From NCBI RefSeq assembly GCF_053078305.1, contig NZ_CP166879.1: a DNA stretch of 64,000 nucleotides, one strand, 5' to 3'. Below, in pieces: positions 1 through 32,474 of the stretch. Positions within the stretch are counted from its first letter, which is position 1. Every line of letters starts with the position of its first letter. The notes below the pieces were generated by a model, which was given only the letters and a program-made list of their open reading frames with translations, was not told the DNA's origin and searched no databases. The position numbers were made by a program, and so were the translations under genes.

Positions 1-3000
1 ATCCCTCTTCTGTCCGCCTGCTGATTCAGCTTGAGCGTAACGGGCACTGGGTGACGGAGAAGGATATCACCATTAACGGCAAGACCACCTCGCAGTACCT
101 GACGTCTGTGATTCTGAATAATCTCCCTGAGCGCCCCTTTAACATCCGGATGGTCAGGGAGACGGCGGACAGCACCACGGACCAGCTGCAGAACAGAACG
201 CTGTGGTCGTCATACACCGAAATCATCGATGTGAAACAGTGCTACCCGAACACGGCCATTGTGGGGCTGCAGGTGGATGCGGAGCAGTTTGGTGGCCAGC
301 AGCTGACGGTGAACTACCATATCCGTGGTCGCATCATTCAGGTGCCGTCAAACTATGACCCGGAAAAACGCACCTACAGCGGTATCTGGGACGGGAGTCT
401 GAAACCGGCATACAGCAATAACCCGGCCTGGTGCCTGTGGGACATGCTGACCCACCCGCGCTACGGCATGGGAAAACGCCTGGGGGCCGCGGATGTGGAC
501 AAGTGGGCACTGTATGCCATCGGGCAGTACTGCGACCAGACGGTCCCGGATGGTTTCGGGGGAACAGAGCCGCGGATGACTTTCAATGCGTACCTGTCAC
601 AGCAGCGTAAGGTGTGGGATGTCCTGGGGGATTTCTGCTCGGCGATGCGCTGTATGCCGGTATGGAACGGCCAGACGCTGACGTTCGTTCAGGACCGTCC
701 GTCGGATGTGGTGTGGCCGTACACCAACAGCGATGTGGTGGTGGATGATAACGGCGTGGGGTTCCGCTACAGCTTCAGTGCCCTGAAGGACCGGCACACG
801 GCGGTGGAGGTGAATTACACCGACCCGCAGAACGGCTGGCAGACCTCCACGGAACTGGTGGAAGACCCGGACGCCATCCTGCGCTACGGACGCAACCTGC
901 TGAAGATGGATGCGTTTGGCTGTACCAGCCGCGGTCAGGCCCACCGTGCCGGACTGTGGGTGATAAAGACCGAACTGCTGGAAACGCAGACGGTGGATTT
1001 CACGCTCGGGTCACAGGGGCTGCGGCATACGCCCGGTGACATCATTGAAATCTGTGATAACGACTATGCCGGGACCCTGACCGGCGGACGCATCCTGTCC
1101 ATTGATGCCGCCAGCCGCACACTGACGCTGGACCGTGAGGTGACACTGCCGGAAGCAGGGACATCGACGGTGAACCTGATTAACGGCAGCGGTAAGCCGG
1201 TGCGCGTGGACATCACTGCACACCCCGCGCCGGACCGGATACAGGTCAGCGCCCTGCCGGATGGCGTGGAGACATACGGTGTGTGGGGACTCTCCCTGCC
1301 GTCACTGCGTCGTCGCCTGTTCCGCTGTGTTTCCATCCGGGAAAACACGGACGGCACTTTTGCCATCACGGCAGTGCAGCACGTACCGGAAAAAGAAGCC
1401 ATTGTGGATAACGGGGCTCGCTTTGAGCCGCTGTCCGGTTCACTGAACAGCGTTATCCCGCCGGCAGTGCAGCACCTCACGGTGGAGGTGAGTGCCTCAG
1501 ACGGCCAGTATCTGGCGCTGGCGAAATGGGACACGCCGCGGGTGGTGAAGGGCGTGCGCTTCAGTCTGCGCCTGACCAGCGGAAACGGTGAAAACAGCCG
1601 CCTGGTGACCACCGCCATCACTGCCGACACGGAGCACCGTTTCAGTGGCCTGCCTCTGGGGGAATACACCCTGACGGTCAGGGCGATAAACAGCTACGGC
1701 CAGCAGGGCGAACCTGCCACCACCGCGTTCCGGATTAATGCGCCTGCAGCACCGGCCAGCATTGAGCTGACGCCGGGGTATTATCAGATAACAGCAGTAC
1801 CGGTGCTGGCGGTGTATGACCCGACGGTACAGTTTGAGTTCTGGTTCTCGGAGGCAAAAATCGCAGACACATCTCAGGTGGAAACCTCTGCCCGTTATCT
1901 GGGGACAGGCAGCCAGTGGAGCGTCTCCGGCCCGCACATCAAGCCGGGGAAGGATTTCTGGTTTTATGTGCGCAGCGTTAACCTGGTGGGGAAATCTGCG
2001 TTTGTGGAAGCCAGTGGCCGGGCGAGCAATGATGCAGAAGGGTATCTGGGGCTGTTTCGGGAAAAGATAGGAAAACTGCATCTGGCACAGGGGATGTGGG
2101 AGCTGATTGATAACAGCCAGCTTGACAATGAGATGGCGGAGATGAAGACCACCATCACCGAAACCCGCAATGAAATCACGCAGACGGTCAGTAAAACCCT
2201 GGAAGACCAGAGCGCCACCATACAGCAGATACAGCGGGTGCAGACAGACACAAATAACGACCTGGCTGCGCTGTACATGCTGAAGGTGCAGAAAACAAAA
2301 AACGGCATTCCGTATGTTGCCGGTATAGGTGCGGGGATTGAGGATGCTGATGGCCAGCCCCTGAGCAATATTCTGCTGCAGGCGGACCGTATCGCGATGA
2401 TTAACCCGGAGAACGGCAACACCACGCCGCTGTTTGTGGCGCAGGGGAATCAGCTGTTCATGAACGATGTGTTCCTGAAGCGGTTGTTTGCAGTGAGCAT
2501 CACCTCGTCCGGCAATCCCCCGACGTTTTCCCTGACGCCGGACGGGAAACTGACGGCCCGCAATGCTGATATCAGCGGACATATCAGTGCGAACTCGGGC
2601 ACGCTGAATAATGTCGTGATAGCGGAGAACTGTACGATAAATGGCACGCTGAAAGCGGAGAACATTATTGGTGATCTTGTGAAATGTGCAGGGGTGGCTT
2701 TTCCGGTGGATGGTAGTTACCTTGCGAACGGTACACGAACGCTGACGGTATATGACGATCACAGCTTTGACCGGCAGATTATAATCCCGCCGATAATCTA
2801 TGTCGGGTCAAAACAGGAATCCCGTACCAGTAATGACATCTGGACAGAGTGCTTCCTGCATGTTGATCAGAACGGACGCCGGATTTATTCAGGCAGGTCA
2901 GTGACAGAGCCGGGAATTTTCAGCGGGATCATCGATATGCCAGCCGGAGGTGGTCATATCACCCTGAGTTTTACCGTAAGTTCACGACGTCAGAACGGGA

Positions 3001-3077
3001 GTTTTGGCAGTTCACGTATCAGTAACCTTCAGGCGATAGTGGTGAAGAAAAACAGCGCGGGGATCAGTATCCGCTGA
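1..3077 (+). CDS. Phage tail host-specificity protein (lambda gpJ-like), C-terminal ~1000 aa; reading frame is open to the window start, so 5' partial
   Basis: ORF 51..3077 continues in frame without a stop back to position 3; size and sequence style match lambda J-type tail tip proteins; followed by a tail-fibre gene. Confidence 0.85.
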
Positions 3078-3275
3078 ACATCGCGCCCCGGGATTGCCGG
3101 AAGGAGACAAAAACCGTACAGTATGCGCGGGTGCCTTTGGCTGATGGCCGGAGGGAACACCTGAAGGCCGGAAAGACGAAGGCCCCGGACAAACATTCAT
3201 GTTTAACCCGAGGCCTGACTTTCGATCTTCAGCAAATTGAAGGTTAGCGCCTCTCCGTAAAAGGAGCAAGCGTTT

Positions 3276-3416
3276 ATGTCGCAAAAACCGTTAAAAACCA
3301 CCGTGATTTGTACCACGGTAGTGCTCATTATCTGGATCACCCACACTTCACTGTGCGAGTTCCGGTTCCGGATAGCGGGCGCGGAGATTGCGGCGTTCTT
3401 ACAGTGTAAGCAGTAA
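3276..3416 (+). CDS. Hok/Gef-family type I toxin-like small membrane protein (46 aa: MSQKPLKTTVICTTVVLIIWITHTSLCEFRFRIAGAEIAAFLQCKQ)
   Basis: Read directly; below the ORF-track size cutoff. AAGGAG RBS 9 nt upstream of the ATG; basic N-terminus, one TM segment, C-terminal S-L-C-E-x-R/H ... A-A-F-L-x-C-K pattern as in HokA/HokB/Gef. Confidence 0.6.
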   Translation: MSQKPLKTTVICTTVVLIIWITHTSLCEFRFRIAGAEIAAFLQCKQ

Positions 3417-3558
3417 GAAACCGTGGCGTGGGAGAATATCCCCCGCCGACCGGTTGCTGAGGGTGGTCAGCCGGATGGCACCGTTTTAACACCAACAAAC
3501 CACAAATATTACCGCAGGCCGGGAAACCGGTACTGCGGTTTTTTTATGGGGGAAATCC

Positions 3559-5292
3559 ATGACAGTCAGAATATCGGGTGTGCTGAAGGATGGTACGGGA
3601 AAAGCGGTACCGGGATGCACGATAGAGCTGAAAGCGCGCCGCACAACGGAGACGGTGATTGTCACCACGGTGGCGTATGGTCAGCCGGGGGAAACCGGCA
3701 GTTACAGTATGGATGTTGAGCCGGGGTTGTACCGGGTGACGCTGAACACGGAAGGGTACGCGCCGTCATATGTGGGTGACATTCTGGTGAAGGCGGATTC
3801 TGCACCGGGAACGCTGAATAAATTTCTGATGGACCTGGAAGACGCACAGTATTACCCGAAAGCCCTTGCAGAGCTGGAAGCGGTGGCAGCGGAAATCCTG
3901 AAGCGTGCAGAAGCGTCAGCGGCCAGTGCAGAGGAAGCGAAGAAACGGGCAGAGAATGCGCGGGGACCGAAGGGGGATAAGGGAGACACCGGGCCACAGG
4001 GGATTCCCGGGCCAAAAGGCGATACCGGCGAGCGGGGGCCAAAGGGTGAGCGTGGTGAGACAGGGCCACAGGGGCTTCAGGGTGTGAAAGGTGAACGGGG
4101 AGAGAAGGGCGAAAAAGGCGAGCCGGGAGGGCCGGATGCGACGACGGCACAGAAGGGAATTGTGCAGTTAAGCAGCGCAACGGACAGTGATGATGAAACG
4201 AAGGCAGCCACGCCGAAAGCGGTGAAAGCGGCAATGGACAAAGCGGACGGATGCCTGGAGAAAGCGAAAAACGGTGACGATATCCCGGATAAGGTGAAGT
4301 TTCTGAACACCGTGGGAGCAGCCAGAGTATACGGGCGGGACATTCATACGGGGGCCGGTGAATGGACCACGAGTGAGTTTGTCGCCTGGCTGAAAGAAAA
4401 AGGGGCATTTGACCAGCCTTACTGGATGATGAAGGCATCACTGCTTGCGTCAATGAATAAAGTCATCACAGATGTCGGACCGGGAAAACTCAATCTGGGT
4501 GGCTGTGTCATTGAGGTGATGGGAACGTATGAGGCTGCCATAGTCCGGGTCACCATTGGCGAATACGGTGCAACGGGGTTTATTAATGGCACGGTCTGTA
4601 CCTGTACGGTTTACGGCGACACACAGTATTTCCACTGGCGGGTGGATTACAGCACAAAAAACAAACCGGATACGGTCAGCCAGCGGGATGCCAGTACGAC
4701 GCAGAAAGGTGTGGTGCAGTTAAGCAGTGATACTGGCAGTAATGACGAAACAAAGGCAGCCACGCCGAAGGCCGTGAAGGCGGCAATGGATGTGGCAAAT
4801 GAAGCGAAAACAAAGGCAGAAGAGGCTGCAGCAGGAGGTGGTGTTCCCGGTCCGAAAGGAGAGAAAGGTGACCCCGGAGCACAGGGTCCGAAAGGTGAAA
4901 CGGGAGCAACAGGCCCCGCTGGTCCGCGGGGAGCGCAGGGACCGAAAGGGGAGAAAGGCGACCCCGGTCCCAGAGGTGAGCGTGGAGAAACCGGGCCGAT
5001 GGGGCCGCCGGGGGCATCAGGAGATGACGGGAAGAGTCGTGTCATGGGCTTCAGGCTGGGGAATCCGGTAACGTATGAGTTGCAGGAGGGGGACCATGGC
5101 TGGTCAGTTAATCTGGCTGATGGTTCAGTCATTACAGGGCTTTCGGGGAACACTCAGGGCGGCGTCAGCCGTGTTACAACGATTTACTACAGGCCGCTGC
5201 AGATGACGTTTGATGGCTCTCACTGGCGCACCGTTGGTGTTGGTGAGTATGTGTCGTCAGGAGCGCCGGGGCGTGAGTATTTTTCATTATAA
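3559..5292 (+). CDS. Phage tail fibre protein with two collagen-like Gly-X-Y tracts and duplicated phage tail-fibre repeat motif
   Basis: 577-aa ORF after [14 protein letters not shown]... tracts; motif [32 protein letters not shown] present twice. Confidence 0.85.
3964..4131 (+). repeat. Collagen-like Gly-X-Y tract 1 inside tail-fibre CDS
   Basis: About 56 codons of uninterrupted G-X-Y triplets. Confidence 0.85.
4141..4238 (+). repeat. Phage tail-fibre repeat motif, copy 1 (direct repeat with 4696..4790)
   Basis: About 100 bp segment re-occurring about 555 bp downstream at both nucleotide and protein level. Confidence 0.75.
4696..4790 (+). repeat. Phage tail-fibre repeat motif, copy 2
   Basis: Direct repeat of 4141..4238. 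Confidence 0.75.
4834..5025 (+). repeat. Collagen-like Gly-X-Y tract 2 inside tail-fibre CDS
   Basis: About 64 codons of G-X-Y triplets. Confidence 0.85.
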
Positions 5293-5333
5293 AGCGCATC
5301 ACTTGTCAGACATGTAACCGGGAGGACTTACAG

Positions 5334-6005
5334 ATGCACATAAAGAATTTCAGACAATACACGCCGGAAAATCCGGATGTGCCGGGTGCGATGTACCTGA
5401 AATCAGAGGATGGTCAGGACTGGTATGAGTGTCAGTCGTTATTTTCAGCAGAGACGCTGAAGGTGGTTTATAACAGTGCCGGGGTCATTACCGGCATCAG
5501 CAGGGTGGCATCAGTTCTGTGGCCTGTGAATCAGAGTGTGGTGGAGGTGGCGGATACGGAAGAAAACCGCAAAGCTGACATCTCCGGGCGCTGGGGTTTT
5601 GACGGGGAGAAAATCACGGACCTGCTGACCGCGGAGAAAGCGCGAGGGATGAAGGGCGATGAAATTAACGCCTGGCGTAATGCGATGGAAGCGGCGAACT
5701 ACACGTTTGAGCACAATGGGCGTAAATGGGACTACGGGAAGTCAACGCAGACGCGTCTTGAGCCGTCGGTGGCGGCAGCGAAAGCGGGGAAACTGCCGGA
5801 GGCGTTTTTCTGGACGGATGCGGAAAACAATGATGTGCCGGTGACAGCAGACGAGCTTATTGCGCTGAGTGAAGCGGCAGAGCAGGCGATGTTTACCAAA
5901 GGGATGGAAATCCACGTCCGGCAGCGCACCATGAAGAAAGAGCTGGAAAAGCTGACCAGTGAGGATGAGATACTGGCATACAGGGTTGGCTGGGCACAGG
6001 AATAA
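5334..6005 (+). CDS. Tail-fibre assembly/chaperone-like protein (Tfa-like)
   Basis: 223-aa ORF immediately downstream of the tail fibre with GGAGG-type RBS; C-terminal region resembles tail-fibre assembly proteins. Confidence 0.5.
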   Translation: MHIKNFRQYTPENPDVPGAMYLKSEDGQDWYECQSLFSAETLKVVYNSAGVITGISRVASVLWPVNQSVVEVADTEENRKADISGRWGFDGEKITDLLTAEKARGMKGDEINAWRNAMEAANYTFEHNGRKWDYGKSTQTRLEPSVAAAKAGKLPEAFFWTDAENNDVPVTADELIALSEAAEQAMFTKGMEIHVRQRTMKKELEKLTSEDEILAYRVGWAQE

Positions 6006-6016
6006 CAGACAAAAAG

Positions 6017-6040
6017 ATGGGGGACCATCACCTCCCCCAT
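6017..6040 (+). terminator. Stem-loop (GGGGGA ... TCCCCC) after the phage tail-fibre genes; weak T-tract
   Basis: Inverted repeat seen in sequence. Confidence 0.35.
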
Positions 6041-6317
6041 GAACTGCGTTGACTATGTAATTATTGTGAAGAGACCTTACCTACACAGATAAAGAGTGCC
6101 ACGGAAAAGTTAATTCCGGAAGTGATGGAGCTCTCATTTTTGCGTGCTTTTTGTTCATGGGATTTACATGGGGCATCTTGGGGCATATATGGGACAAAAG
6201 AAGTCCTCAGATAAACAGAGAAATCGAGTTCAGGATTCTTATTGAAAAATGTAATTATCTGAAAAAACTTAGAAAACGCAAATAAGGCCACAGAATGTTA
6301 GAAAACATCTATGAATT

Positions 6318-7601
6318 ATGGATTTCCAGTTATATTCGCTCGGCGCAGCGTTAGTGTTTCATGAAATATTTTTTCCTGAATCATCAACGGCAATGGCGTT
6401 AATTTTGGCAATGGGAACCTACGGTGCAGGTTATGTGGCGCGTATTGTCGGAGCATTTATTTTCGGCAAAATGGGCGACAGAATAGGGCGTAAAAAAGTG
6501 CTCTTTATTACCATCACCATGATGGGGATCTGTACCACCTTAATTGGTGTGTTACCGACCTATGCACAGATTGGTGTTTTTGCCCCCATCTTGCTGGTGA
6601 CGCTGCGTATTATTCAGGGGTTGGGTGCAGGTGCGGAAATTTCCGGTGCCGGTACGATGCTGGCGGAATATGCGCCAAAAGGTAAGCGCGGAATTATCTC
6701 CTCATTTGTAGCTATGGGAACTAACTGCGGAACCTTGAGCGCAACGGCAATCTGGGCCTTTATGTTCTTCATTCTCAGTAAAGAGGAACTGCTGGCGTGG
6801 GGATGGCGTATACCGTTCCTGGCGAGCGTTGTCGTGATGGTCTTTGCTATCTGGTTGCGTATGAATCTGAAAGAAAGCCCGGTCTTTGAGAAGGTTAACG
6901 ACAGCAACCAACCGACAGCAAAACCTGCACCTGCTGGTAGCATGTTCCAGAGCAAATCCTTCTGGCTGGCAACAGGGCTGCGTTTTGGTCAGGCAGGTAA
7001 CTCCGGGTTAATTCAGACTTTCCTTGCAGGCTATTTAGTACAGACGTTATTGTTTAACAAAGCAATTCCAACAGATGCATTGATGATCAGTTCGATTCTC
7101 GGCTTTATGACCATTCCGTTCCTTGGTTGGTTATCCGATAAAATTGGTCGCCGGATCCCGTATATTATTATGAATACCTCTGCGATTGTGCTGGCATGGC
7201 CAATGCTTTCTATCATCGTAGATAAAAGCTATGCCCCGAGCACCATTATGGTTGCACTGATTGTGATTCATAACTGTGCGGTGCTGGGATTATTTGCTCT
7301 GGAAAACATTACCATGGCAGAAATGTTCGGCTGTAAAAACCGCTTTACCCGGATGGCTATTTCTAAAGAAATTGGTGGTCTTATCGCTTCCGGTTTTGGT
7401 CCTATCCTTGCGGGTATTTTCTGCACCATGACGGAATCCTGGTATCCGATCGCCATTATGATCATGGCATATTCAGTGATTGGTTTAATCTCTGCGCTGA
7501 AAATGCCAGAAGTGAAAGACCGTGATTTAAGTGCGCTGGAAGACGCTGCGGAGGATCAACCGCGTGTTGTAAGAGCTGCGCAACCTTCCAGAAGTCTGTA
7601 A
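6318..7601 (+). pseudogene. ydfJ: ydfJ, 5'-truncated MFS (metabolite:H+ symporter family) transporter; N-terminal TM segments replaced by prophage DNA
   Basis: 427-aa ORF starts inside the conserved G-x-x-x-R-P-x-G ... GDRIGRKK loop-2/3 motif; in-frame stop 2 codons upstream; prophage genes directly upstream. Confidence 0.8.
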
Positions 7602-7689
7602 ATCCTCAATCCCTTCTCTTACCGGAGAGGGGATTTTTATTCATATAACAAAACATGTAGCTTGCCATATTTAAATTTAAGGAATTGTT

Positions 7690-9150
7690 ATGGGAAATAA
7701 TTTGTTATCAGCAAAAGCGACACTCCCTGTTTATGATCGTTATAACCTGGCCCCAAGAATTGTTCATTTAGGCTTTGGTGCATTTCACCGTGCGCATCAG
7801 GGCGTGTATGCCGATATTCTTGCTACAGAACATTTCAGTGACTGGGGATATTATGAGGTCAACTTAATCGGCGGCGAACAGCAAATTGCCGATTTACAAC
7901 AGCAAGATAATCTTTATACCGTTGCGGAAATGTCGGCCGATGCGTGGACGGCTCGCGTCGTTGGCGTCGTTAAAAAAGCCTTGCACGTACAGATAGATGG
8001 CTTAGAAACCGTGTTGGCTGCGATGTGTGAACCGCAAATCGCGATTGTCTCTCTGACAATCACCGAAAAAGGGTATTTCCACTCTCCGGCGACCGGACAG
8101 TTAATGCTCGATCACCCGATGGTCGTTGCCGATGTACAAAATCCCCACCAGCCGAAAACTGCAACAGGGGTGATAGTCGAGGCGCTGGCTCGCCGTAAAG
8201 CGGCAGGACTTCCCGCATTTACCGTCATGTCATGTGACAACATGCCAGAAAACGGTCATGTTATGCGTGACGTTGTCACTTCCTACGCGCAAGCTGTTGA
8301 TGTAAAATTGGCACAATGGATCGAAGAAAACGTGACTTTCCCATCAACAATGGTGGACCGTATTGTGCCCGCAGTGACAGAGGATACGCTGGCGAAAATC
8401 GAACAACTTACCGGTGTGCGCGATCCTGCGGGCGTTGCCTGTGAACCTTTCCGCCAGTGGGTTATCGAAGATAACTTTGTTGCCGGACGTCCGGAATGGG
8501 AAAAAGCGGGAGCCGAACTGGTTAGTGATGTGCTGCCTTATGAAGAGATGAAGTTGCGCATGCTCAACGGCAGTCATTCATTCCTGGCGTATTTGGGTTA
8601 TCTTGCTGGATATCAGCACATTAATGACTGTATGGAAGATGAACATTATCGTTATGCGGCGTATGGCTTGATGTTGCAGGAACAAGCGCCGACGCTGAAA
8701 GTGCAGGGCGTTGATTTGCAAGATTACGCTAACCGATTAATTGAACGCTATAGCAACCCGGCGTTACGTCATCGAACCTGGCAGATTGCGATGGATGGCA
8801 GCCAGAAATTGCCACAGCGGATGTTGGATTCTGTTCGCTGGCATCTGGCGCATGACAGCAAGTTCGATCTGCTGGCGCTGGGCGTCGCGGGTTGGATGCG
8901 TTATGTCGGTGGTGTTGATGAACAGGGAAATCCGATAGAAATCAGTGACCCACTGTTACCTGTTATTCAGAAGGCTGTACAAAGTAGTGCCGAAGGGAAA
9001 GCGCGCGTCCAGTCATTGCTGGCGATTAAGGCAATCTTTGGTGATGATTTGCCAGACAATTGCTTGTTTACTGCAAAAGTGACGGAAGCGTACTTGTCTT
9101 TATTAGCGCATGGCGCGAAAGCGACCGTGGCGAAATATTCCGTGAAGTAA
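7690..9150 (+). CDS. ydfI: Mannitol dehydrogenase-family oxidoreductase
   Basis: 486-aa ORF, long-chain mannitol/mannonate dehydrogenase family. Confidence 0.9.
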
Positions 9151-15961: not shown

Positions 15962-16068
15962 TATTTGCCTCCGTTTATGGTGTGGTGTGTTTCCTCGCTT
16001 ACCTTAATTTTCATCTCAATGAGAAAGATATTAGCAGAGGTTATCTAAACAAAGGCTGAATCAGGCGA

Positions 16069-17065
16069 TTATTGTGATGGGGAACGGCTGTTTTTGCGAT
16101 ATTGCGAAGGAGATAATAAAAAACGTTGGTGAAAGTGATGACGCAATAACGCTGAATTGCCAAAACCCGTCAGCTCGGCAATTTTCTCGATGTTAAAAAC
16201 CGAATTTTGCAGATAATCCTGTACTCGTATTAAGCGCTCATTGAGCAGCCAGCGGGCGGGCGTCATGCCAGTTAACGCCTCAAAACGTCTTAAAAAAGTG
16301 CGCGGACTCATATTTACCCGTTCGGCGAGGGAAGACACAGTATGTGTTTGTGCCAGATTCTGCTGCAAAAAGTCGAATAAGGCACCTAACGTCTGGCTTT
16401 CACGCGGTGAGGCCATTGGGCGCGTCAGATTTTGTGGTTGATCCCCCTGGCGATGTGGCTGAATGACCAGTCGCCGGGCGACATTATTAGCAATCTCATG
16501 ACCAAAATCTTTGCGCACGATATGTAAACACAGATCGATCCCCGCGGCGCTTCCGGCGGAGGTCATCACTTGTCCTTCATCCTGATATAACACATTGTCA
16601 CTTACGCTGATTGAAGGGTAACGGTGCTGGAGTTGTTCAGTGTAGCGCCAGTGGGTGGTTGCTTTTCGCTGATGAAGAAGGCCCGCAGCAAGCAGCAAGG
16701 ACAAACACGCCAGAGCATATTGATACCAGGCGAGTACCGCGCTGGTGTGCCTCGCGCAATGACTGGCATAGCATCTCCGGCACTTTGGCATCTATTCCGC
16801 GCCAGCCAGGAATAATAATCATATCGGCGTTGGGCAATAACTCCAGTCCACCATCTGCAACCACGTGGATCCCCCCGGTGGCTTGTAGCGCACCAGGTTC
16901 TACCGCAGCAACAGCAAAACGATACCAATTATCGCCCAGTTCCGGTCGTGGCAGGCCGAATATTTCAACGGCAACGCCAAATTCAAAAGTACATAGCCCG
17001 TCATATGCCAGTGCAATGACCAGCGGACGTTGTAACGTTGTCATCATTTTGCTCATTTCTGGCAT
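16069..17065 (-). pseudogene. GlxA-family regulator (DJ-1/PfpI domain + AraC HTH) disrupted by a frameshift
   Basis: N-terminal DJ-1/PfpI ORF (16637..17065) and C-terminal AraC-HTH ORF (16069..16791) overlap in different frames; a perfect 7-bp tandem duplication GCAGCAA at 16685..16698 sits exactly at the frame break. Confidence 0.8.
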
Positions 17066-17138
17066 ATCGAGAGGCGGTCAGTGAAAGGTAGATTAGTTAC
17101 ATTATTGTTAACACAACAAACCAAAAGGACAAAGCAAT

Positions 17139-17534
17139 ATGCGTTATGTCACTGAATTTACCACAGCGAAGCCAGAAGTTGCTGAGGCGCATTTTCTCGC
17201 GCGCTTGAGTGTCGAAACAGATTGCGCCGATGTTCATGACTCTCTGGCTTATATTGGCGATGATTTCGTTTTACTTCATGTGGTTGGACGTGAAGAGGAC
17301 TTCGCGCGTCGGCATATCCCAGGCGCTCTCCATTTACCCCATAAGCAAATGACCGCAGAAAGAATGGCCGAATGGCCCGACGATACGCTATTTGTGGTGT
17401 ATTGCGCGGGGCCACATTGTAACGGTGCAGACCGTGCGGCACTCAAACTGGCTCGACTCGGAAAGCCGGTTAAAATCATGCTCGGCGGGATAACCGGCTG
17501 GGAAGATGAAGGCTATGCCTTTGCCTCAGAATAA
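17139..17534 (+). CDS. Single-domain rhodanese-like sulfurtransferase
   Basis: 131-aa ORF with Cys-containing loop VVYCAGPHCNGADR; divergent from the GlxA-type regulator. Confidence 0.75.
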   Translation: MRYVTEFTTAKPEVAEAHFLARLSVETDCADVHDSLAYIGDDFVLLHVVGREEDFARRHIPGALHLPHKQMTAERMAEWPDDTLFVVYCAGPHCNGADRAALKLARLGKPVKIMLGGITGWEDEGYAFASE

Positions 17535-17574
17535 TGATTAGCGAAGCCGTGCCAGTAGTGGAACGGCACGAACG

Positions 17575-18955: not shown

Positions 18956-19855
18956 ATGTCGCGGAAAGATGGGTTGTTGGCGCTACTAGTCGTCGTTGTA
19001 TGGGGGCTTAATTTTGTGGTCATCAAAGTGGGGCTTCATAACATGCCACCGCTGATGCTGGCCGGTTTGCGCTTTATGCTGGTCGCCTTCCCGGCAATCT
19101 TTTTCGTGGCACGACCAAAAGTACCGCTGAATTTACTGCTGGGGTATGGTTTAACCATCAGTTTTGCACAGTTTGCCTTTCTCTTCTGCGCCATTAACTT
19201 CGGTATGCCGGCTGGACTGGCCTCGCTGGTCTTACAGGCTCAGGCGTTTTTTACTATCGTGCTCGGTGCTTTTACTTTTGGCGAACGGCTGCACGGTAAG
19301 CAACTGGCGGGGATTGCGTTAGCGATTTTTGGCGTACTGGTGTTAATCGAAGATAGCTTTAACGGTCAGCATGTGGCGATGCTCGGTTTTATGTTGACTC
19401 TGGCAGCGGCATTTAGTTGGGCGAGTGGCAATATCTTCAACAAAAAGATCATGTCTCATTCATCCCGTCCGGCGGTAATGTCTCTGGTCGTCTGGAGCGC
19501 ATTAATCCCGATAATTCCGTTTTTTGTCGCCTCGCTCATTCTCGATGGCTCCGGAAAAATGATTCACAGTCTGGTCACTATCGACATGACCACCATTCTG
19601 GCGTTGATGTATCTGGCATTTGTAGCGACGATAGTTGGCTACGGGATTTGGGGTACGCTGCTTGGACGCTATGAAACATGGCGTGTCGCACCATTATCAT
19701 TACTGGTGCCGGTAGTCGGTCTGGCAAGTGCAGCGTTACTGCTGGATGAACGCTTAACGGGTCTGCAATTTTTCGGCGCGGTGCTCATTATGACCGGGCT
19801 GTATATCAATGTATTTGGTTTGCAGTGGCGTAAAGCGGTGAAGGTAAGAGGTTAA
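18956..19855 (+). CDS. eamA: Cysteine/O-acetylserine exporter (DMT family)
   Basis: 299 aa from MSRKDGLLALLVVVVWGLNFVV. Confidence 0.9.
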   Translation: MSRKDGLLALLVVVVWGLNFVVIKVGLHNMPPLMLAGLRFMLVAFPAIFFVARPKVPLNLLLGYGLTISFAQFAFLFCAINFGMPAGLASLVLQAQAFFTIVLGAFTFGERLHGKQLAGIALAIFGVLVLIEDSFNGQHVAMLGFMLTLAAAFSWASGNIFNKKIMSHSSRPAVMSLVVWSALIPIIPFFVASLILDGSGKMIHSLVTIDMTTILALMYLAFVATIVGYGIWGTLLGRYETWRVAPLSLLVPVVGLASAALLLDERLTGLQFFGAVLIMTGLYINVFGLQWRKAVKVRG

Positions 19856-19885
19856 CAAGCCCCGATATGCCGGGGCCTGAATATA

Positions 19886-29911: not shown

Positions 29912-31363
29912 GTGAAAACACTAAATCGTCGCGATTTTCCCGGTGCACAGTATCCAGAACGTATCATTCAGTTTGGTGAAGGTAACTTCCTGCGCGCCTT
30001 TGTTGACTGGCAAATCGATCTCCTGAATGAGCACACCGATCTGAATTCTGGTGTGGTCGTTGTTCGTCCGATTGAAACTTCATTCCCGCCGTCACTGAGC
30101 ACGCAGGATGGTCTGTACACCACCATTATCCGTGGCCTGAATGAGAAGGGGGAAGCGGTCAGCGACGCGCGTCTGATTCGCTCTGTTAATCGTGAAATCA
30201 GCGTCTACAGTGAATACGATGAATTCCTGAAACTGGCGCACAACCCGGAAATGCGCTTTGTTTTCTCTAACACCACCGAAGCGGGTATCAGCTACCATGC
30301 GGGCGATAAATTCGATGACGCGCCAGCGGTAAGTTATCCGGCAAAACTGACTCGTCTACTGTTCGAACGTTTCAGTCATTTCAACGGCGCGCAGGATAAA
30401 GGTTGGATCATCATCCCTTGTGAACTGATCGACTATAACGGCGATGCGCTGCGTGAACTGGTTCTGCGCTACGCACAAGAGTGGGCGCTACCAGAAGCAT
30501 TTATTCAATGGCTGGATCAGGCTAACAGCTTCTGCTCTACGCTGGTGGATCGTATCGTTACCGGTTATCCGCGTGATGAAGTGGCGAAACTGGAAGAAGA
30601 ACTGGGTTATCACGATGGTTTCCTCGACACCGCGGAACACTTTTACCTGTTTGTGATTCAGGGGCCGAAATCCTTAGCGACTGAACTGCGGCTGGACAAA
30701 TATCCGCTCAACGTGCTGATTGTTGACGATATTAAACCGTATAAAGAGCGCAAAGTGGCAATCCTCAACGGTGCGCACACCGCGCTGGTGCCGGTGGCGT
30801 TCCAGGCAGGGCTGGATACCGTAGGTGAAGCGATGAACGATGCTGAAATTTGCGCATTCGTTGAAAACGCTATCTACGAAGAGATTATTCCGGTACTGGA
30901 TTTGCCACGCGATGAGCTGGAATCTTTTGCCAGTGCAGTCACCGGGCGTTTCCGTAACCCGTACATTAAGCATCAGCTGCTGTCTATCGCGCTCAACGGT
31001 ATGACCAAGTTCCGCACCCGCATCCTGCCGCAGCTACTGGCAGGGCAGAAGGCAAACGGCACACTTCCGGCGCGCCTTACTTTCGCATTAGCGGCATTGA
31101 TTGCGTTCTATCGCGGTGAGCGTAACGGAGAAACATATCCGGTACAGGACGATGCACACTGGCTGGAACGTTATCAGCAACTCTGGAGCCAGCATCGTGA
31201 CCGTGTTATCGGTACCCAGGAACTGGTTGCGATTGTGTTGGCAGAAAAAGACCACTGGGAGCAGGACCTGACGCAAGTGCCTGGTCTGGTCGAGCAGGTT
31301 GCTAATGACCTGGATGCGATTCTTGAAAAAGGGATGCGCGAAGCTGTACGTCCGTTGTGCTAA
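29912..31363 (+). CDS. uxaB: Altronate oxidoreductase (tagaturonate reductase), GTG start
   Basis: 483-aa ORF. Confidence 0.95.
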
Positions 31364-31370
31364 TACTCTG

Positions 31371-31399
31371 AACCCGGTTTCGACCGGGTTTCTTATTTC
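31371..31399 (+). terminator. Rho-independent terminator of uxaB
   Basis: AACCCGGT/ACCGGGTT hairpin plus T-rich tail. Confidence 0.6.
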
Positions 31400-31559
31400 A
31401 TTATATTAGTTACAACATCCTATGAGCCTTTATCATTAACAGGTGCCACATGCAGCGCCTGTTAATGTTGTAATTTTGTAGGTAATTTGTAAGTAGCGTC
31501 TTGAGAATGTGATCGTAATCACGTTTAATAGGGCGACTTTTCCACGCCTGAAGATAACC

Positions 31560-32474
31560 ATGATTGTTCGTCCACAACAACACTGGCTGCGCCGTATTTT
31601 TGTCTGGCACGGTTCAGTATTATCCAAGATATCCTCGCGCTTACTACTCAATTTTCTCTTTTCTATCGCTGTTATTTTCATGCTGCCCTGGTACACGCAT
31701 TTGGGCATTAAATTCACCCTCGCACCGTTCAGCATTCTCGGTGTCGCCATCGCCATTTTTCTTGGTTTTCGTAATAATGCCGGTTACGCCCGTTACGTTG
31801 AAGCGCGAAAACTTTGGGGGCAGTTGATGATTGCCTCGCGGTCGTTACTGCGCGAGGTAATAACGACATTGCCGGATTCGGCAAGTGTAAGGGAGTTTGC
31901 CCGGCTGCAAATCGCCTTCGCTCACTGTTTACGCATGACATTACGCAAACAGCCACAGGCGGAAGTGCTGGCTCATTATCTCAAGACTGAAGATCTTCAG
32001 CGTGTACTGGCTTCGAACTCTCCAGCTAACCGTATCTTGTTAATAATGGGAGAATGGTTGGCGGTTCAGCGCCGCAATGGACAGCTTTCAGATATCCTGT
32101 TTATTAGCCTCAACGATCGGCTTAACGATATTTCAGCGGTTCTGGCAGGCTGCGAGCGCATTGCCTACACGCCAATTCCCTTTGCCTACACCCTGATTTT
32201 GCATCGTACCGTTTATCTGTTTTGTATCATGCTGCCGTTCGCGCTGGTCGTGGACCTGCATTACATGACGCCTTTTATCTCTGTGCTGATTTCCTACACT
32301 TTTATTTCGCTGGATTGTCTGGCGGAAGAACTGGAAGATCCGTTCGGTACTGAAAACAATGATTTACCGCTGGATGCCATCTGCAACGCTATTGAAATTG
32401 ACCTCTTACAGATGAACGATGAAGCCGAAATTCCAGCAAAAATTCTTCCCGATCGCCATTACCAACTGACGTGA
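31560..32474 (+). CDS. yneE: Bestrophin-family putative anion channel
   Basis: 304 aa from MIVRPQQHWLRR; ORF track begins 17 codons upstream. Confidence 0.8.
   Translation: MIVRPQQHWLRRIFVWHGSVLSKISSRLLLNFLFSIAVIFMLPWYTHLGIKFTLAPFSILGVAIAIFLGFRNNAGYARYVEARKLWGQLMIASRSLLREVITTLPDSASVREFARLQIAFAHCLRMTLRKQPQAEVLAHYLKTEDLQRVLASNSPANRILLIMGEWLAVQRRNGQLSDILFISLNDRLNDISAVLAGCERIAYTPIPFAYTLILHRTVYLFCIMLPFALVVDLHYMTPFISVLISYTFISLDCLAEELEDPFGTENNDLPLDAICNAIEIDLLQMNDEAEIPAKILPDRHYQLT

What the first reader, a model, noticed from the sequence alone, without database searches (positions are those of the whole stretch)
1..6317. Lambdoid prophage tail module ending at a truncated ydfJ
J, the Hok-like ORF, the tail fibre and the Tfa-like gene are all on the + strand and stop at a weak stem-loop (6017..6040). 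They are followed by about 280 bp of AT-rich DNA and then ydfJ, which lacks its first TM segments. This is the signature of a prophage integrated within ydfJ, at the position where K-12 carries the defective Qin prophage, but with a different tail gene set. The phage/host junction should lie in 6041..6317.
Basis: partly seen in the sequence, partly recalled or inferred. Interest (0 to 1): 0.45.

Follow-up and report, generated by a model that had tools for sequence, protein, structure and literature searches.

The report
Lambdoid prophage end inside ydfJ
This is the right-hand end of a lambda-like prophage inserted into the E. coli transporter gene ydfJ, at the same attachment site as the K-12 Qin prophage; this site is documented and occupied in more than half of complete E. 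coli genomes, so the finding is correct but ordinary.

Summary
Window 1-6005 carries, on the + strand:
- the C-terminal ~1024 codons of tail-tip protein J
- a hok/sok-type toxin cassette
- a collagen-repeat side tail fibre
- a DUF4376 "Tfa-like" gene

ydfJ (6318-7601) is residues 29-455 of the intact 455-aa protein. It lacks 28 residues (the N-terminal tail and roughly the first third of TM1), not several TM segments.

A four-way comparison defines the core TGAATT(T)ATGGATTTC at window 6312-6326. It used attB from an empty-site genome, attP of phage mEp460, attL of the closest relative and of K-12, and attR of the window and of K-12 Qin. The apparent ydfJ start codon lies inside this core.

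The AT-rich spacer is all phage DNA:
- 6006-6147 travels with the tail module.
- ~6170-6311 is the attP "P" arm, ~82% identical to Qin's.

Of 5426 complete E. coli genomes, 2010 have the empty site and 3167 carry this type of attR. This tail module next to ydfJ occurs in only 9. Integration into ydfJ and the 28-codon loss are already published. Novelty: already known. Interest is low.

The parts
3..3077 (+). C-terminal ~1024 codons of the lambda-type tail tip/host-specificity protein J. The gene runs off the left end of the window.
   Evidence: The frame is open from position 3. Pfam hits FNIII-A_GpJ, Phage-tail_3, Ig_J, Ig_J_second, Phage_Tail_Tip and Ig_GpJ_C. It is 96% identical to gpJ of FHI_NMBU_10 up to 2611. 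The receptor-binding end 2612-3090 differs from FHI_NMBU_10 but matches phage 1720a-02.
3129..3287 (+). hok mRNA leader / sok antisense region of a type I toxin-antitoxin cassette.
   Evidence: Rfam RF01794 (sok), 63.5 bits against a gathering score of 59, E=1e-12, full-length model match.
3276..3416 (+). Hok/Gef-family toxin gene (46 aa), in the position that lom occupies in lambda.
   Evidence: Pfam HOK_GEF E=7.4e-10. PHROG 251 'MokW-like host killing' E=4e-20. 30-35% identical to HokD and R1 Hok, with the conserved C..LCE.R.R..E.A.F pattern. Annotated 'Hok/Gef family protein' in relatives.
3511..3545 (+). Strong intrinsic terminator closing the hok cassette.
   Evidence: 12-bp GC-rich stem plus U7, -25.6 kcal/mol, z=-5.93, 0 of 200 shuffles fold as well.
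3559..5292 (+). Side tail fibre (577 aa) with collagen-like triplet repeats and two phage-fibre repeats.
   Evidence: Pfam phage_tail_N, Collagen, Phage_fiber_2. PHROG 366 tail fiber E=1e-121.
5334..6005 (+). 223-aa tail-fibre-associated protein (the 'Tfa-like' gene). N-terminus resembles tail-fibre assembly proteins; C-terminus is DUF4376.
   Evidence: Pfam DUF4376 E=5e-18, with no Caudo_TAP hit. PHROG 11571 E=1e-149. PHROG 136 'tail fiber assembly protein' matches residues 1-98 only.
6006..6147 (.). Non-coding trailer that travels with the tail module, including the 6017-6040 stem-loop.
   Evidence: Homology to phage 1720a-02 and to prophages at other chromosomal sites (for example next to tRNA-Ser/hyaA in STEC434) runs through 6139-6147 and then stops. 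Stem-loop.
6165..6311 (.). attP-derived 'P' arm of attR. Carries tandem TGGGGCA motifs at 6169 and 6179 and a TGGGACA variant at 6190, which are candidate arm-type integrase sites.
   Evidence: ~80-83% identical to the corresponding arm of K-12 Qin, phage mEp460, Tritos, HannyBb and ydfJ-integrated Stx2a phages. The same motif occurs in tandem in the other arm. It occurs only 8 times on both strands of the 64-kb window. The two small ORFs here have no PHROG match.
6312..6326 (.). att core TGAATTATGGATTTC, where the phage/host crossover occurred.
   Evidence: Four-way comparison of attB, attP, attL and attR. Empty-site genomes align to the window starting exactly at 6312. A TT/TTT difference at 6316-6317 places the exchange within ATGGATTTC (6318-6326).
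6318..7601 (+). ydfJ', codons 29-455 of the MHS-family MFS transporter gene ydfJ, lacking the first 28 codons and its promoter.
   Evidence: 427/427 aa identical to residues 29-455 of the intact YdfJ of NZ_CP148289. PGAP flags the same ORF in relatives as 'missing N-terminus'. An in-frame TGA at 6312-6314 blocks any upstream extension.
7690..9150 (+). ydfI (mannitol-dehydrogenase family), the host gene downstream. Included for context only.
   Evidence: Pfam Mannitol_dh and Mannitol_dh_C. Annotation in relatives.

Best explanation
The window starts inside the late (tail) region of a lambda-like prophage and crosses its right attachment site, attR, into the host gene ydfJ.

How the structure arose: a circular phage genome carried attP between its tail-fibre genes and its integrase gene. 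A lambda-type tyrosine integrase with an arm-binding domain recombined attP with a 15-16 bp matching sequence in codons ~25-31 of ydfJ. That split ydfJ in two. The first 28 codons and the promoter stayed next to rspB, beside int-xis at attL, which lies outside the window. Codons 29-455 lie here, next to the phage P arm.

Shown directly:
- the gene identities
- the position of the core
- the attB/attP/attL/attR relationship
- use of the same site and arm type as K-12 Qin

Inferred:
- The TGGGGCA repeats are the arm-type integrase sites.
- Strand exchange occurred within ATGGATTTC.
- ydfJ' is silent or non-functional.
- This prophage has the same int end as its closest relatives.

The prophage is a mosaic. 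An int/att module of the Qin/mEp460 type is joined at ~6148-6169 to a J-hok-stf-DUF4376 tail module. In most other genomes that tail module sits in prophages at different sites.
For: Gene content.

Junctions:
- Closest relative FHI_NMBU_10 (97.8% identity): rspB, then the ydfJ 5' fragment, then int-xis, then ~52 kb of lambdoid genes, then J-hok-stf-DUF4376, then ydfJ'.
- Empty site: rspB followed by a 455-aa ydfJ, 801/801 match to the reconstructed attB.
- attP of the free phage mEp460 equals the left half of attR plus the right half of attL.
- K-12 Qin has the identical core and a homologous arm.
- Empty-site genomes align from window 6312 onward.

Integrase: the relative's integrase has Arm-DNA-bind_2 plus Phage_integrase domains and is 95% identical to mEp460 Int.

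Literature:
- PMC6379469 describes Qin integration at the 5' end of ydfJ, with promoter loss and loss of 28 N-terminal codons.
Against: The window does not contain attL, the integrase or the early region, so this particular prophage's completeness and its int type are extrapolated from relatives. No genome in the collection is identical to the window (best 97.8% over 94%). No binding or recombination assay supports the proposed arm sites. The prophage could have entered this strain by homologous recombination of the flanks rather than by a fresh integration event: identical ydfJ' alleles occur in occupied and empty genomes.
Confidence: 0.95

Rival explanations
1. What lies left of the window is not one complete inducible prophage. 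It is either a decayed remnant like Qin or a tandem prophage cluster at ydfJ, and the tail module seen here is only its right-hand piece.
For: K-12 Qin is a 20-kb remnant at this site. The literature reports ydfJ-site elements from 11 to 97 kb and clusters of 2-4 prophages. Even the 52-kb relative carries pseudogenes: recE fragment, frameshifted DUF968, truncated DUF1327.
Against: All four genes in the window are intact and full length compared with relatives and with phage 1720a-02. The closest relatives carry a full set of head, tail, lysis and int genes.
Confidence: 0.3
2. ydfJ was truncated by an event unrelated to phage integration (a deletion, an IS element or an illegitimate recombination), and the phage DNA merely lies next to the break.
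For: None specific. IS629 does interrupt ydfJ' further downstream in one Stx2a-phage record.
Against: The break is at the same base in the window, K-12, FHI_NMBU_10 and Stx2_499. It coincides with a core shared with the attP of a free phage. 3167 genomes share this junction type.
Confidence: 0.02
3. The ~280-bp AT-rich stretch is host DNA (a remnant ydfJ upstream region), so the junction lies near 6041 rather than at 6312-6326.
For: Its low GC (0.39) resembles the start of ydfJ more than the phage genes.
Against: Empty-site genomes have no homology left of 6312. 6006-6147 is found in phage 1720a-02 and in prophages at other loci. 6170-6311 is found in free phages next to their integrase gene.
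Confidence: 0.01

Closest known systems
Cryptic prophage Qin of E. coli K-12 (attR side: ydfJ'-ynfT-ydfK-pinQ-tfaQ-stfQ)
   Same: Same integration site, and the same core (TGAATTATGGATTTC at attR). The same 427-codon ydfJ' remains. The P arm is homologous (~82% over ~130 bp). The relative's prophage also shares dicB, hokD, DUF1391 and other Qin-type early genes.
   Different: Qin is a 20-kb remnant with a broken intQ. It ends in an invertible stfQ/tfaQ/pinQ fibre segment plus ydfK. Here the arm is joined directly to a J-hok-stf-DUF4376 module, and the relatives' prophages are ~50 kb with full morphogenesis genes.
Phage mEp460 (and Tritos, HannyBb, PhiR42_1): free lambdoid phages with the Qin-type int/attP
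   Same: Their attP carries the window's P arm (~80% identity) and the same core, next to an integrase 95% identical to that of the window's closest relative.
   Different: Their attP is preceded by stf-tfa-pin-ydfK, as in Qin, not by this tail module.
'PPydfJ' prophages and ydfJ-integrated Stx2a phages of STEC (Stx2_499; the O178:H19 2012C-4431 prophage)
   Same: Lambdoid prophages at the ydfJ attB. The 2012C-4431 prophage ends with the same J-hok-stf-DUF4376-attR arrangement (95.7% identity, 82% coverage) and carries stx2a.
   Different: Many PPydfJ carry effector genes (nleC, nleG) or a dinI-like gene next to the arm. Whether the window's prophage carries stx cannot be seen from the window.
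Escherichia phage 1720a-02 (KF030445)
   Same: The same tail module, J through the 140-bp trailer: 94.9% identity over window 1-6147.
   Different: It has a different integrase and att module. Prophages with this module usually sit at other sites, for example tRNA-Ser/hyaA.
Phage lambda J-lom-stf-tfa region and attP
   Same: The same gene order and logic: the tip protein, then a moron with its own terminator, then a side tail fibre with its partner, then attP, then int. The integrase is heterobivalent, with arm sites on both sides of a short core.
   Different: A hok/sok cassette replaces lom. The fibre partner is DUF4376 rather than the Tfa family. The core sequence and the host target differ (ydfJ instead of the gal-bio intergenic attB).

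Membership tests
Prophages integrated at the ydfJ attB (Qin / PPydfJ type) | ydfJ is interrupted after codon 28, with the remaining ORF starting MDFQLYSL | tested here: met
   Window 6318-7601 equals residues 29-455 of the intact YdfJ, 427/427 identical. Same ORF as K-12 b1543.
Prophages integrated at the ydfJ attB (Qin / PPydfJ type) | The att core TGAATT(T)ATGGATTTC lies at the junction and is shared with attB, attP and attL | tested here: met
   Empty-site homology starts at 6312.
Prophages integrated at the ydfJ attB (Qin / PPydfJ type) | The phage arm next to the core is homologous to the Qin/mEp460 attP arm | tested here: met
   ~80-83% identity over ~6170-6311. 3167 of 5426 genomes carry this junction type.
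Prophages integrated at the ydfJ attB (Qin / PPydfJ type) | A cognate IntQ-type tyrosine integrase and the ydfJ 5' fragment (ynfP) lie at the other end, next to rspB | not testable with these tools
   This lies outside the window (one search finds no 5' fragment in the 64 kb). It is present in the relatives FHI_NMBU_10 and 2012C-4431 and in K-12.
Lambda-type tail tip and side-fibre module | A J protein with the FNIII/Ig/tip/C-terminal receptor-binding domain series | tested here: met
   Six J-specific Pfam domains, E=1e-17 to 1e-41.
Lambda-type tail tip and side-fibre module | A side tail fibre with the prophage tail-fibre N-terminal domain | tested here: met
   PF08400 matched 1-134 of 134, E=4e-40.
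Lambda-type tail tip and side-fibre module | A Tfa-family tail-fibre assembly chaperone (Pfam Caudo_TAP) follows the fibre gene | tested here: not met
   Only DUF4376 is found by Pfam. The N-terminal 98 residues match PHROG 136 'tail fiber assembly protein'. The gene is therefore Tfa-like by position and in part by sequence, but it is not a family member by Pfam.
hok/sok type I toxin-antitoxin loci | A small Hok/Gef-family membrane toxin ORF | tested here: met
   PF01848 at 38.7 bits against a cutoff of 22. Conserved residues shown.
hok/sok type I toxin-antitoxin loci | A conserved structured leader / sok region upstream of and overlapping the hok start | tested here: met
   RF01794 at 63.5 bits against a gathering score of 59.
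hok/sok type I toxin-antitoxin loci | An overlapping mok reading frame that couples hok translation | tested here: not met
   No + strand ORF of 20 aa or more overlaps the hok start. The only upstream ORF (3131-3247) ends before it.
Functional MHS-family MFS transporter | A complete 12-TM MFS fold, including TM1, with its own promoter | tested here: not met
   The MFS_1 profile begins at residue 21 of the intact protein and the truncation removes residues 1-28. No promoter-like site was found on the + strand in 6000-6317.

The most novel reading that the evidence does not exclude
The att core regenerates an in-frame ATG. Carriers of ydfJ-site prophages might therefore still make a 427-aa YdfJ lacking part of TM1, and that product might be kept by selection, making the insertion not a simple knock-out.

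In favour: ydfJ' is intact in 11 of 11 occupied genomes sampled. It shows 55 synonymous against 7 nonsynonymous polymorphisms (mean pairwise dN/dS ~0.024). That is no worse than the 34 against 2 seen in 7 empty-site genomes.

Against: identical alleles are shared between occupied and empty genomes (K-12 = AR202.2; War = Z1323PEC0008). Occupancy therefore turns over faster than the gene mutates, so the low dN/dS says little about selection on the truncated gene. There is also no Shine-Dalgarno sequence or promoter upstream of the ATG.
Probability: 0.06. Interest if true: 0.3.

Novelty: already known. Interest (0 to 1): 0.07.

Why it matters
It matters mainly for annotation. The result fixes the prophage's right boundary to the base (core 6312-6326). 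It shows that the ORF called ydfJ here is a 5'-truncated fragment whose 'start codon' is part of the att core. It also shows that the AT-rich spacer is phage attachment-arm DNA, not host promoter DNA.

The ydfJ site is one of the busiest prophage landing sites in E. coli, occupied in about 58% of complete genomes. It can hold Stx2a-converting phages, and one of the closest relatives of this tail end is such a phage. The unseen left part of this prophage would therefore be worth checking for stx or effector genes. Nothing here is mechanistically new.

Tried and rejected
1. The ydfJ 5' fragment was searched for in the 64-kb window with 20-mers on both strands.
2. The two small ORFs in the AT-rich stretch (6061-6291 on the - strand, 6151-6285 on the + strand) have no PHROG match. 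They are treated as non-coding arm DNA.
3. The 6017-6040 stem-loop was tested as a + strand terminator and rejected as a convincing one. It has no downstream T-run and z is only -1.8. It looks more like a - strand or bidirectional terminator.
4. No promoter was found for ydfJ' in the phage arm.
5. Rfam at E<=1 over 1-8000 found only the sok match.
6. Selection on the truncated ydfJ' was tested by comparing 11 occupied and 7 empty genomes. The result is uninformative, because alleles are shared between the two states.
7. Two literature searches for a YdfJ substrate or an L-gulonate pathway link found nothing usable, so no claim is made about the substrate.
8. The source genome is not in the complete-genome collection at 100% identity. 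The prophage's left part could not be recovered.
Full report
**What is in the sequence**

The + strand of window 1-6005 carries four genes in a row.

- The first is open from position 3 to the stop at 3077. It carries the full series of J-specific Pfam domains: FNIII-A_GpJ, Phage-tail_3, Ig_J, Ig_J_second, Phage_Tail_Tip and Ig_GpJ_C. It is the C-terminal ~1024 codons of a lambda-type tip protein J whose start lies left of the window.
- The 46-codon ORF at 3276-3416 is a Hok/Gef-family toxin. Pfam gives 38.7 bits against a cutoff of 22 and PHROG 251 gives E=4e-20. It is 30-35% identical to HokD and R1 Hok and keeps the conserved residues.
- This ORF is preceded by a full-length match to Rfam RF01794 (sok) at 3129-3287, scoring 63.5 bits against a gathering score of 59.
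- It is followed by a strong terminator at 3511-3545 (-25.6 kcal/mol, z=-5.9, U7). The hok unit is therefore a self-contained cassette, sitting where lambda has lom.
- No mok-like overlapping ORF is present.
- 3559-5292 is a 577-aa side tail fibre with phage_tail_N, collagen repeats and two Phage_fiber_2 repeats.
- 5334-6005 is a 223-aa protein that Pfam calls DUF4376. Only its first ~98 residues resemble tail-fibre assembly proteins.
- The 6017-6040 stem-loop is real but weak (z=-1.8). Its T-run is on the - strand.
- GC drops to 0.39 over 6001-6400.

**The ydfJ truncation**

The ORF at 6318-7601 (427 aa) is an MFS transporter. In a genome without a prophage at this locus (NZ_CP148289), rspB is followed directly by a 455-aa ydfJ. 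The window's ORF equals residues 29-455 of that protein, 427/427 identical.

The missing part is MTIEKHERSTKDLVKAAVSGWLGTALEF. In the intact protein the MFS_1 profile begins at residue 21. The loss is therefore the cytoplasmic N-terminal tail plus roughly the first third of TM1, together with the promoter. It is not several TM segments. An in-frame TGA at 6312-6314 blocks any upstream extension. PGAP marks the same ORF in relatives as 'missing N-terminus'.

**The junction**

The closest complete genome is FHI_NMBU_10 (97.8% identity over 94% of window 1-8000). From left to right it has:

- rspB
- the 84-bp ydfJ 5' fragment
- int and xis
- about 52 kb of lambdoid early, lysis, head and tail genes
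- J-hok-stf-DUF4376
- ydfJ'

Lining up the four site types gives one consistent picture. The sequences compared were attB (empty site), attP of the free phage mEp460, attL (FHI_NMBU_10 and K-12) and attR (window, FHI_NMBU_10, K-12 Qin and Stx2_499).

- attB is ...GCGCTTGAATTT ATGGATTTC CAGTTATATTC...
- attP is ...CACCTGTGAATT ATGGATTTC AAGAGTCATAC...
- attL has the attB left side and the attP right side; attR has the reverse.

The shared core is TGAATT(T)ATGGATTTC, at window 6312-6326. attR keeps the phage's TT where attB and attL have TTT. Strand exchange must therefore have taken place to the right of 6317, within ATGGATTTC (6318-6326). The ATG that appears to start ydfJ' is thus part of the core.

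Two independent checks agree:

- A synthetic attB, made from the relative's attL left half and the window's attR right half, matches an empty-site genome 801/801.
- Empty-site genomes align to the window from exactly 6312 onward.

**The AT-rich spacer is two pieces of phage DNA**

- Homology to phage 1720a-02 (94.9% over window 1-6147) ends at 6139-6147. The same holds for prophages at unrelated sites, such as next to tRNA-Ser/hyaA in STEC434. So 6006-6147 belongs to the tail module.
- From ~6170 to 6311 the sequence is 80-83% identical to DNA beside the integrase gene of mEp460, Tritos, HannyBb and PhiR42_1. It is similarly close to the ydfJ-proximal arm of K-12 Qin and of ydfJ-integrated Stx2a phages. 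This is the P arm of attP.
- The arm carries TGGGGCA at 6169 and 6179 and TGGGACA at 6190, spaced 10-11 bp apart. The same motif occurs in tandem in the other arm, in mEp460, K-12 and FHI_NMBU_10. It occurs only 8 times on both strands of the whole 64 kb.
- The relative's integrase has an arm-DNA-binding domain and a tyrosine-recombinase domain and is 95% identical to mEp460 Int. I infer, without direct evidence, that the repeats are arm-type Int sites.
- The joint between the two modules lies in 6148-6169.

**Comparison with Qin and frequency of the site**

K-12 Qin is annotated from the same core (1632277) to ynfP, the orphan ydfJ 5' fragment next to rspB. It leaves the same 427-codon ydfJ'.

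Of 5426 complete E. coli genomes:

- 2010 (37%) have the uninterrupted rspB-ydfJ junction.
- 3167 (58%) have a P arm + core + ydfJ' junction of this type.
- Only 9 combine it with this tail module.

One of those 9, O178:H19 strain 2012C-4431, carries stx2a in the prophage.

**Literature**

[quoted passage not shown] It reports Qin-site prophages in 48% of 638 genomes, with sizes from 11 to 97 kb.
- PMC8112680 defines an 18-19 bp att for 'PPydfJ' prophages. It notes that phages occupy ydfJ in many strains including K-12, and describes prophage clusters there.

The phenomenon, the site and the size of the truncation are therefore all published.

**A side test: is the truncated gene still under selection?**

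ydfJ' is intact in all 11 occupied genomes examined. It shows 55 synonymous and 7 nonsynonymous polymorphisms (mean pairwise dN/dS ~0.024). In 7 empty-site genomes the counts are 34 and 2.

However, identical alleles occur in both states: K-12 matches AR202.2, and War matches Z1323PEC0008. Occupancy therefore changes faster than the gene accumulates substitutions. The low dN/dS gives no evidence for selection on the truncated form. No promoter or Shine-Dalgarno sequence precedes the ATG.

**Verdict**

- 28 codons are lost, not several TM segments.
- The junction is at 6312-6326, inside the apparent start codon, not somewhere within the AT-rich DNA.
- The 'Tfa-like' gene is a DUF4376 protein.

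The completeness of the prophage and its cargo cannot be judged, because the window begins in J. This is an already known kind of feature at a well-documented site, so interest is low.

Noticed in passing
window 3129-3545: The hok unit between J and the tail fibre is a complete cassette: an Rfam sok/leader match, the hok ORF with a strong AAGGAG Shine-Dalgarno sequence, and a very stable terminator at 3511-3545. It has no mok-like overlapping ORF, unlike classical hok/sok loci.
   Followed up: partly
window 2612-3090: The receptor-binding C-terminal end of J differs from the otherwise closest genome (FHI_NMBU_10) but matches phage 1720a-02. Many Stx phages match J only up to ~2615-2633. This indicates a mosaic joint inside J.
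   Followed up: partly
window 6148-6169: This is the recombination joint between the tail-module trailer (shared with prophages at other att sites) and the Qin-type attP P arm.
   Followed up: yes
L010 (NZ_CP024289) 31056-32296: The ydfJ-site prophage of O178:H19 strain 2012C-4431 ends with the same J-hok-stf-DUF4376-attR arrangement and encodes Stx2a. In FHI_NMBU_10 the equivalent position, after tRNA-Ile/Arg/Arg, holds two small hypothetical ORFs instead.
   Followed up: partly
window 16062-17574: The window has about 1.5 kb between mgtS and ydeE that is absent from FHI_NMBU_10. It holds a GlxA/AraC-type regulator split into two overlapping - strand ORFs (16637-17065 and 16069-16791), probably a frameshift, plus a rhodanese-like ORF at 17139-17534.
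   Followed up: no
window 19855-19875: The window lacks the ~6.2-kb GntR/PTS-IIBCA/porin/6-phospho-beta-glucosidase cluster that FHI_NMBU_10 has between eamA and marB.
   Followed up: no
window 49920-50932 and 53105-53106: Downstream of hipBA the window differs from FHI_NMBU_10. It has ~1 kb with an AraC-like fragment (50000-50254) and an intact fimbrial subunit ORF (50640-51251), where the relative has truncated fragments. It also lacks ~650 bp of the fimbrial usher gene.
   Followed up: no
L003/L020 and L015/L004 (ydfJ' alleles): The ydfJ codons 29-455 of K-12 (site occupied by Qin) are identical at the nucleotide level to those of an empty-site strain (AR202.2). The same holds for strain War (occupied) and Z1323PEC0008 (empty). 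This implies recent gain or loss, or recombinational exchange of the whole locus.
   Followed up: partly
L015 (strain War) and L021 (strain LF4-1), ydfI: The downstream gene ydfI is flagged with an internal stop in one occupied-site genome and one empty-site genome. Decay of this gene cluster is therefore not tied to prophage occupancy.
   Followed up: no
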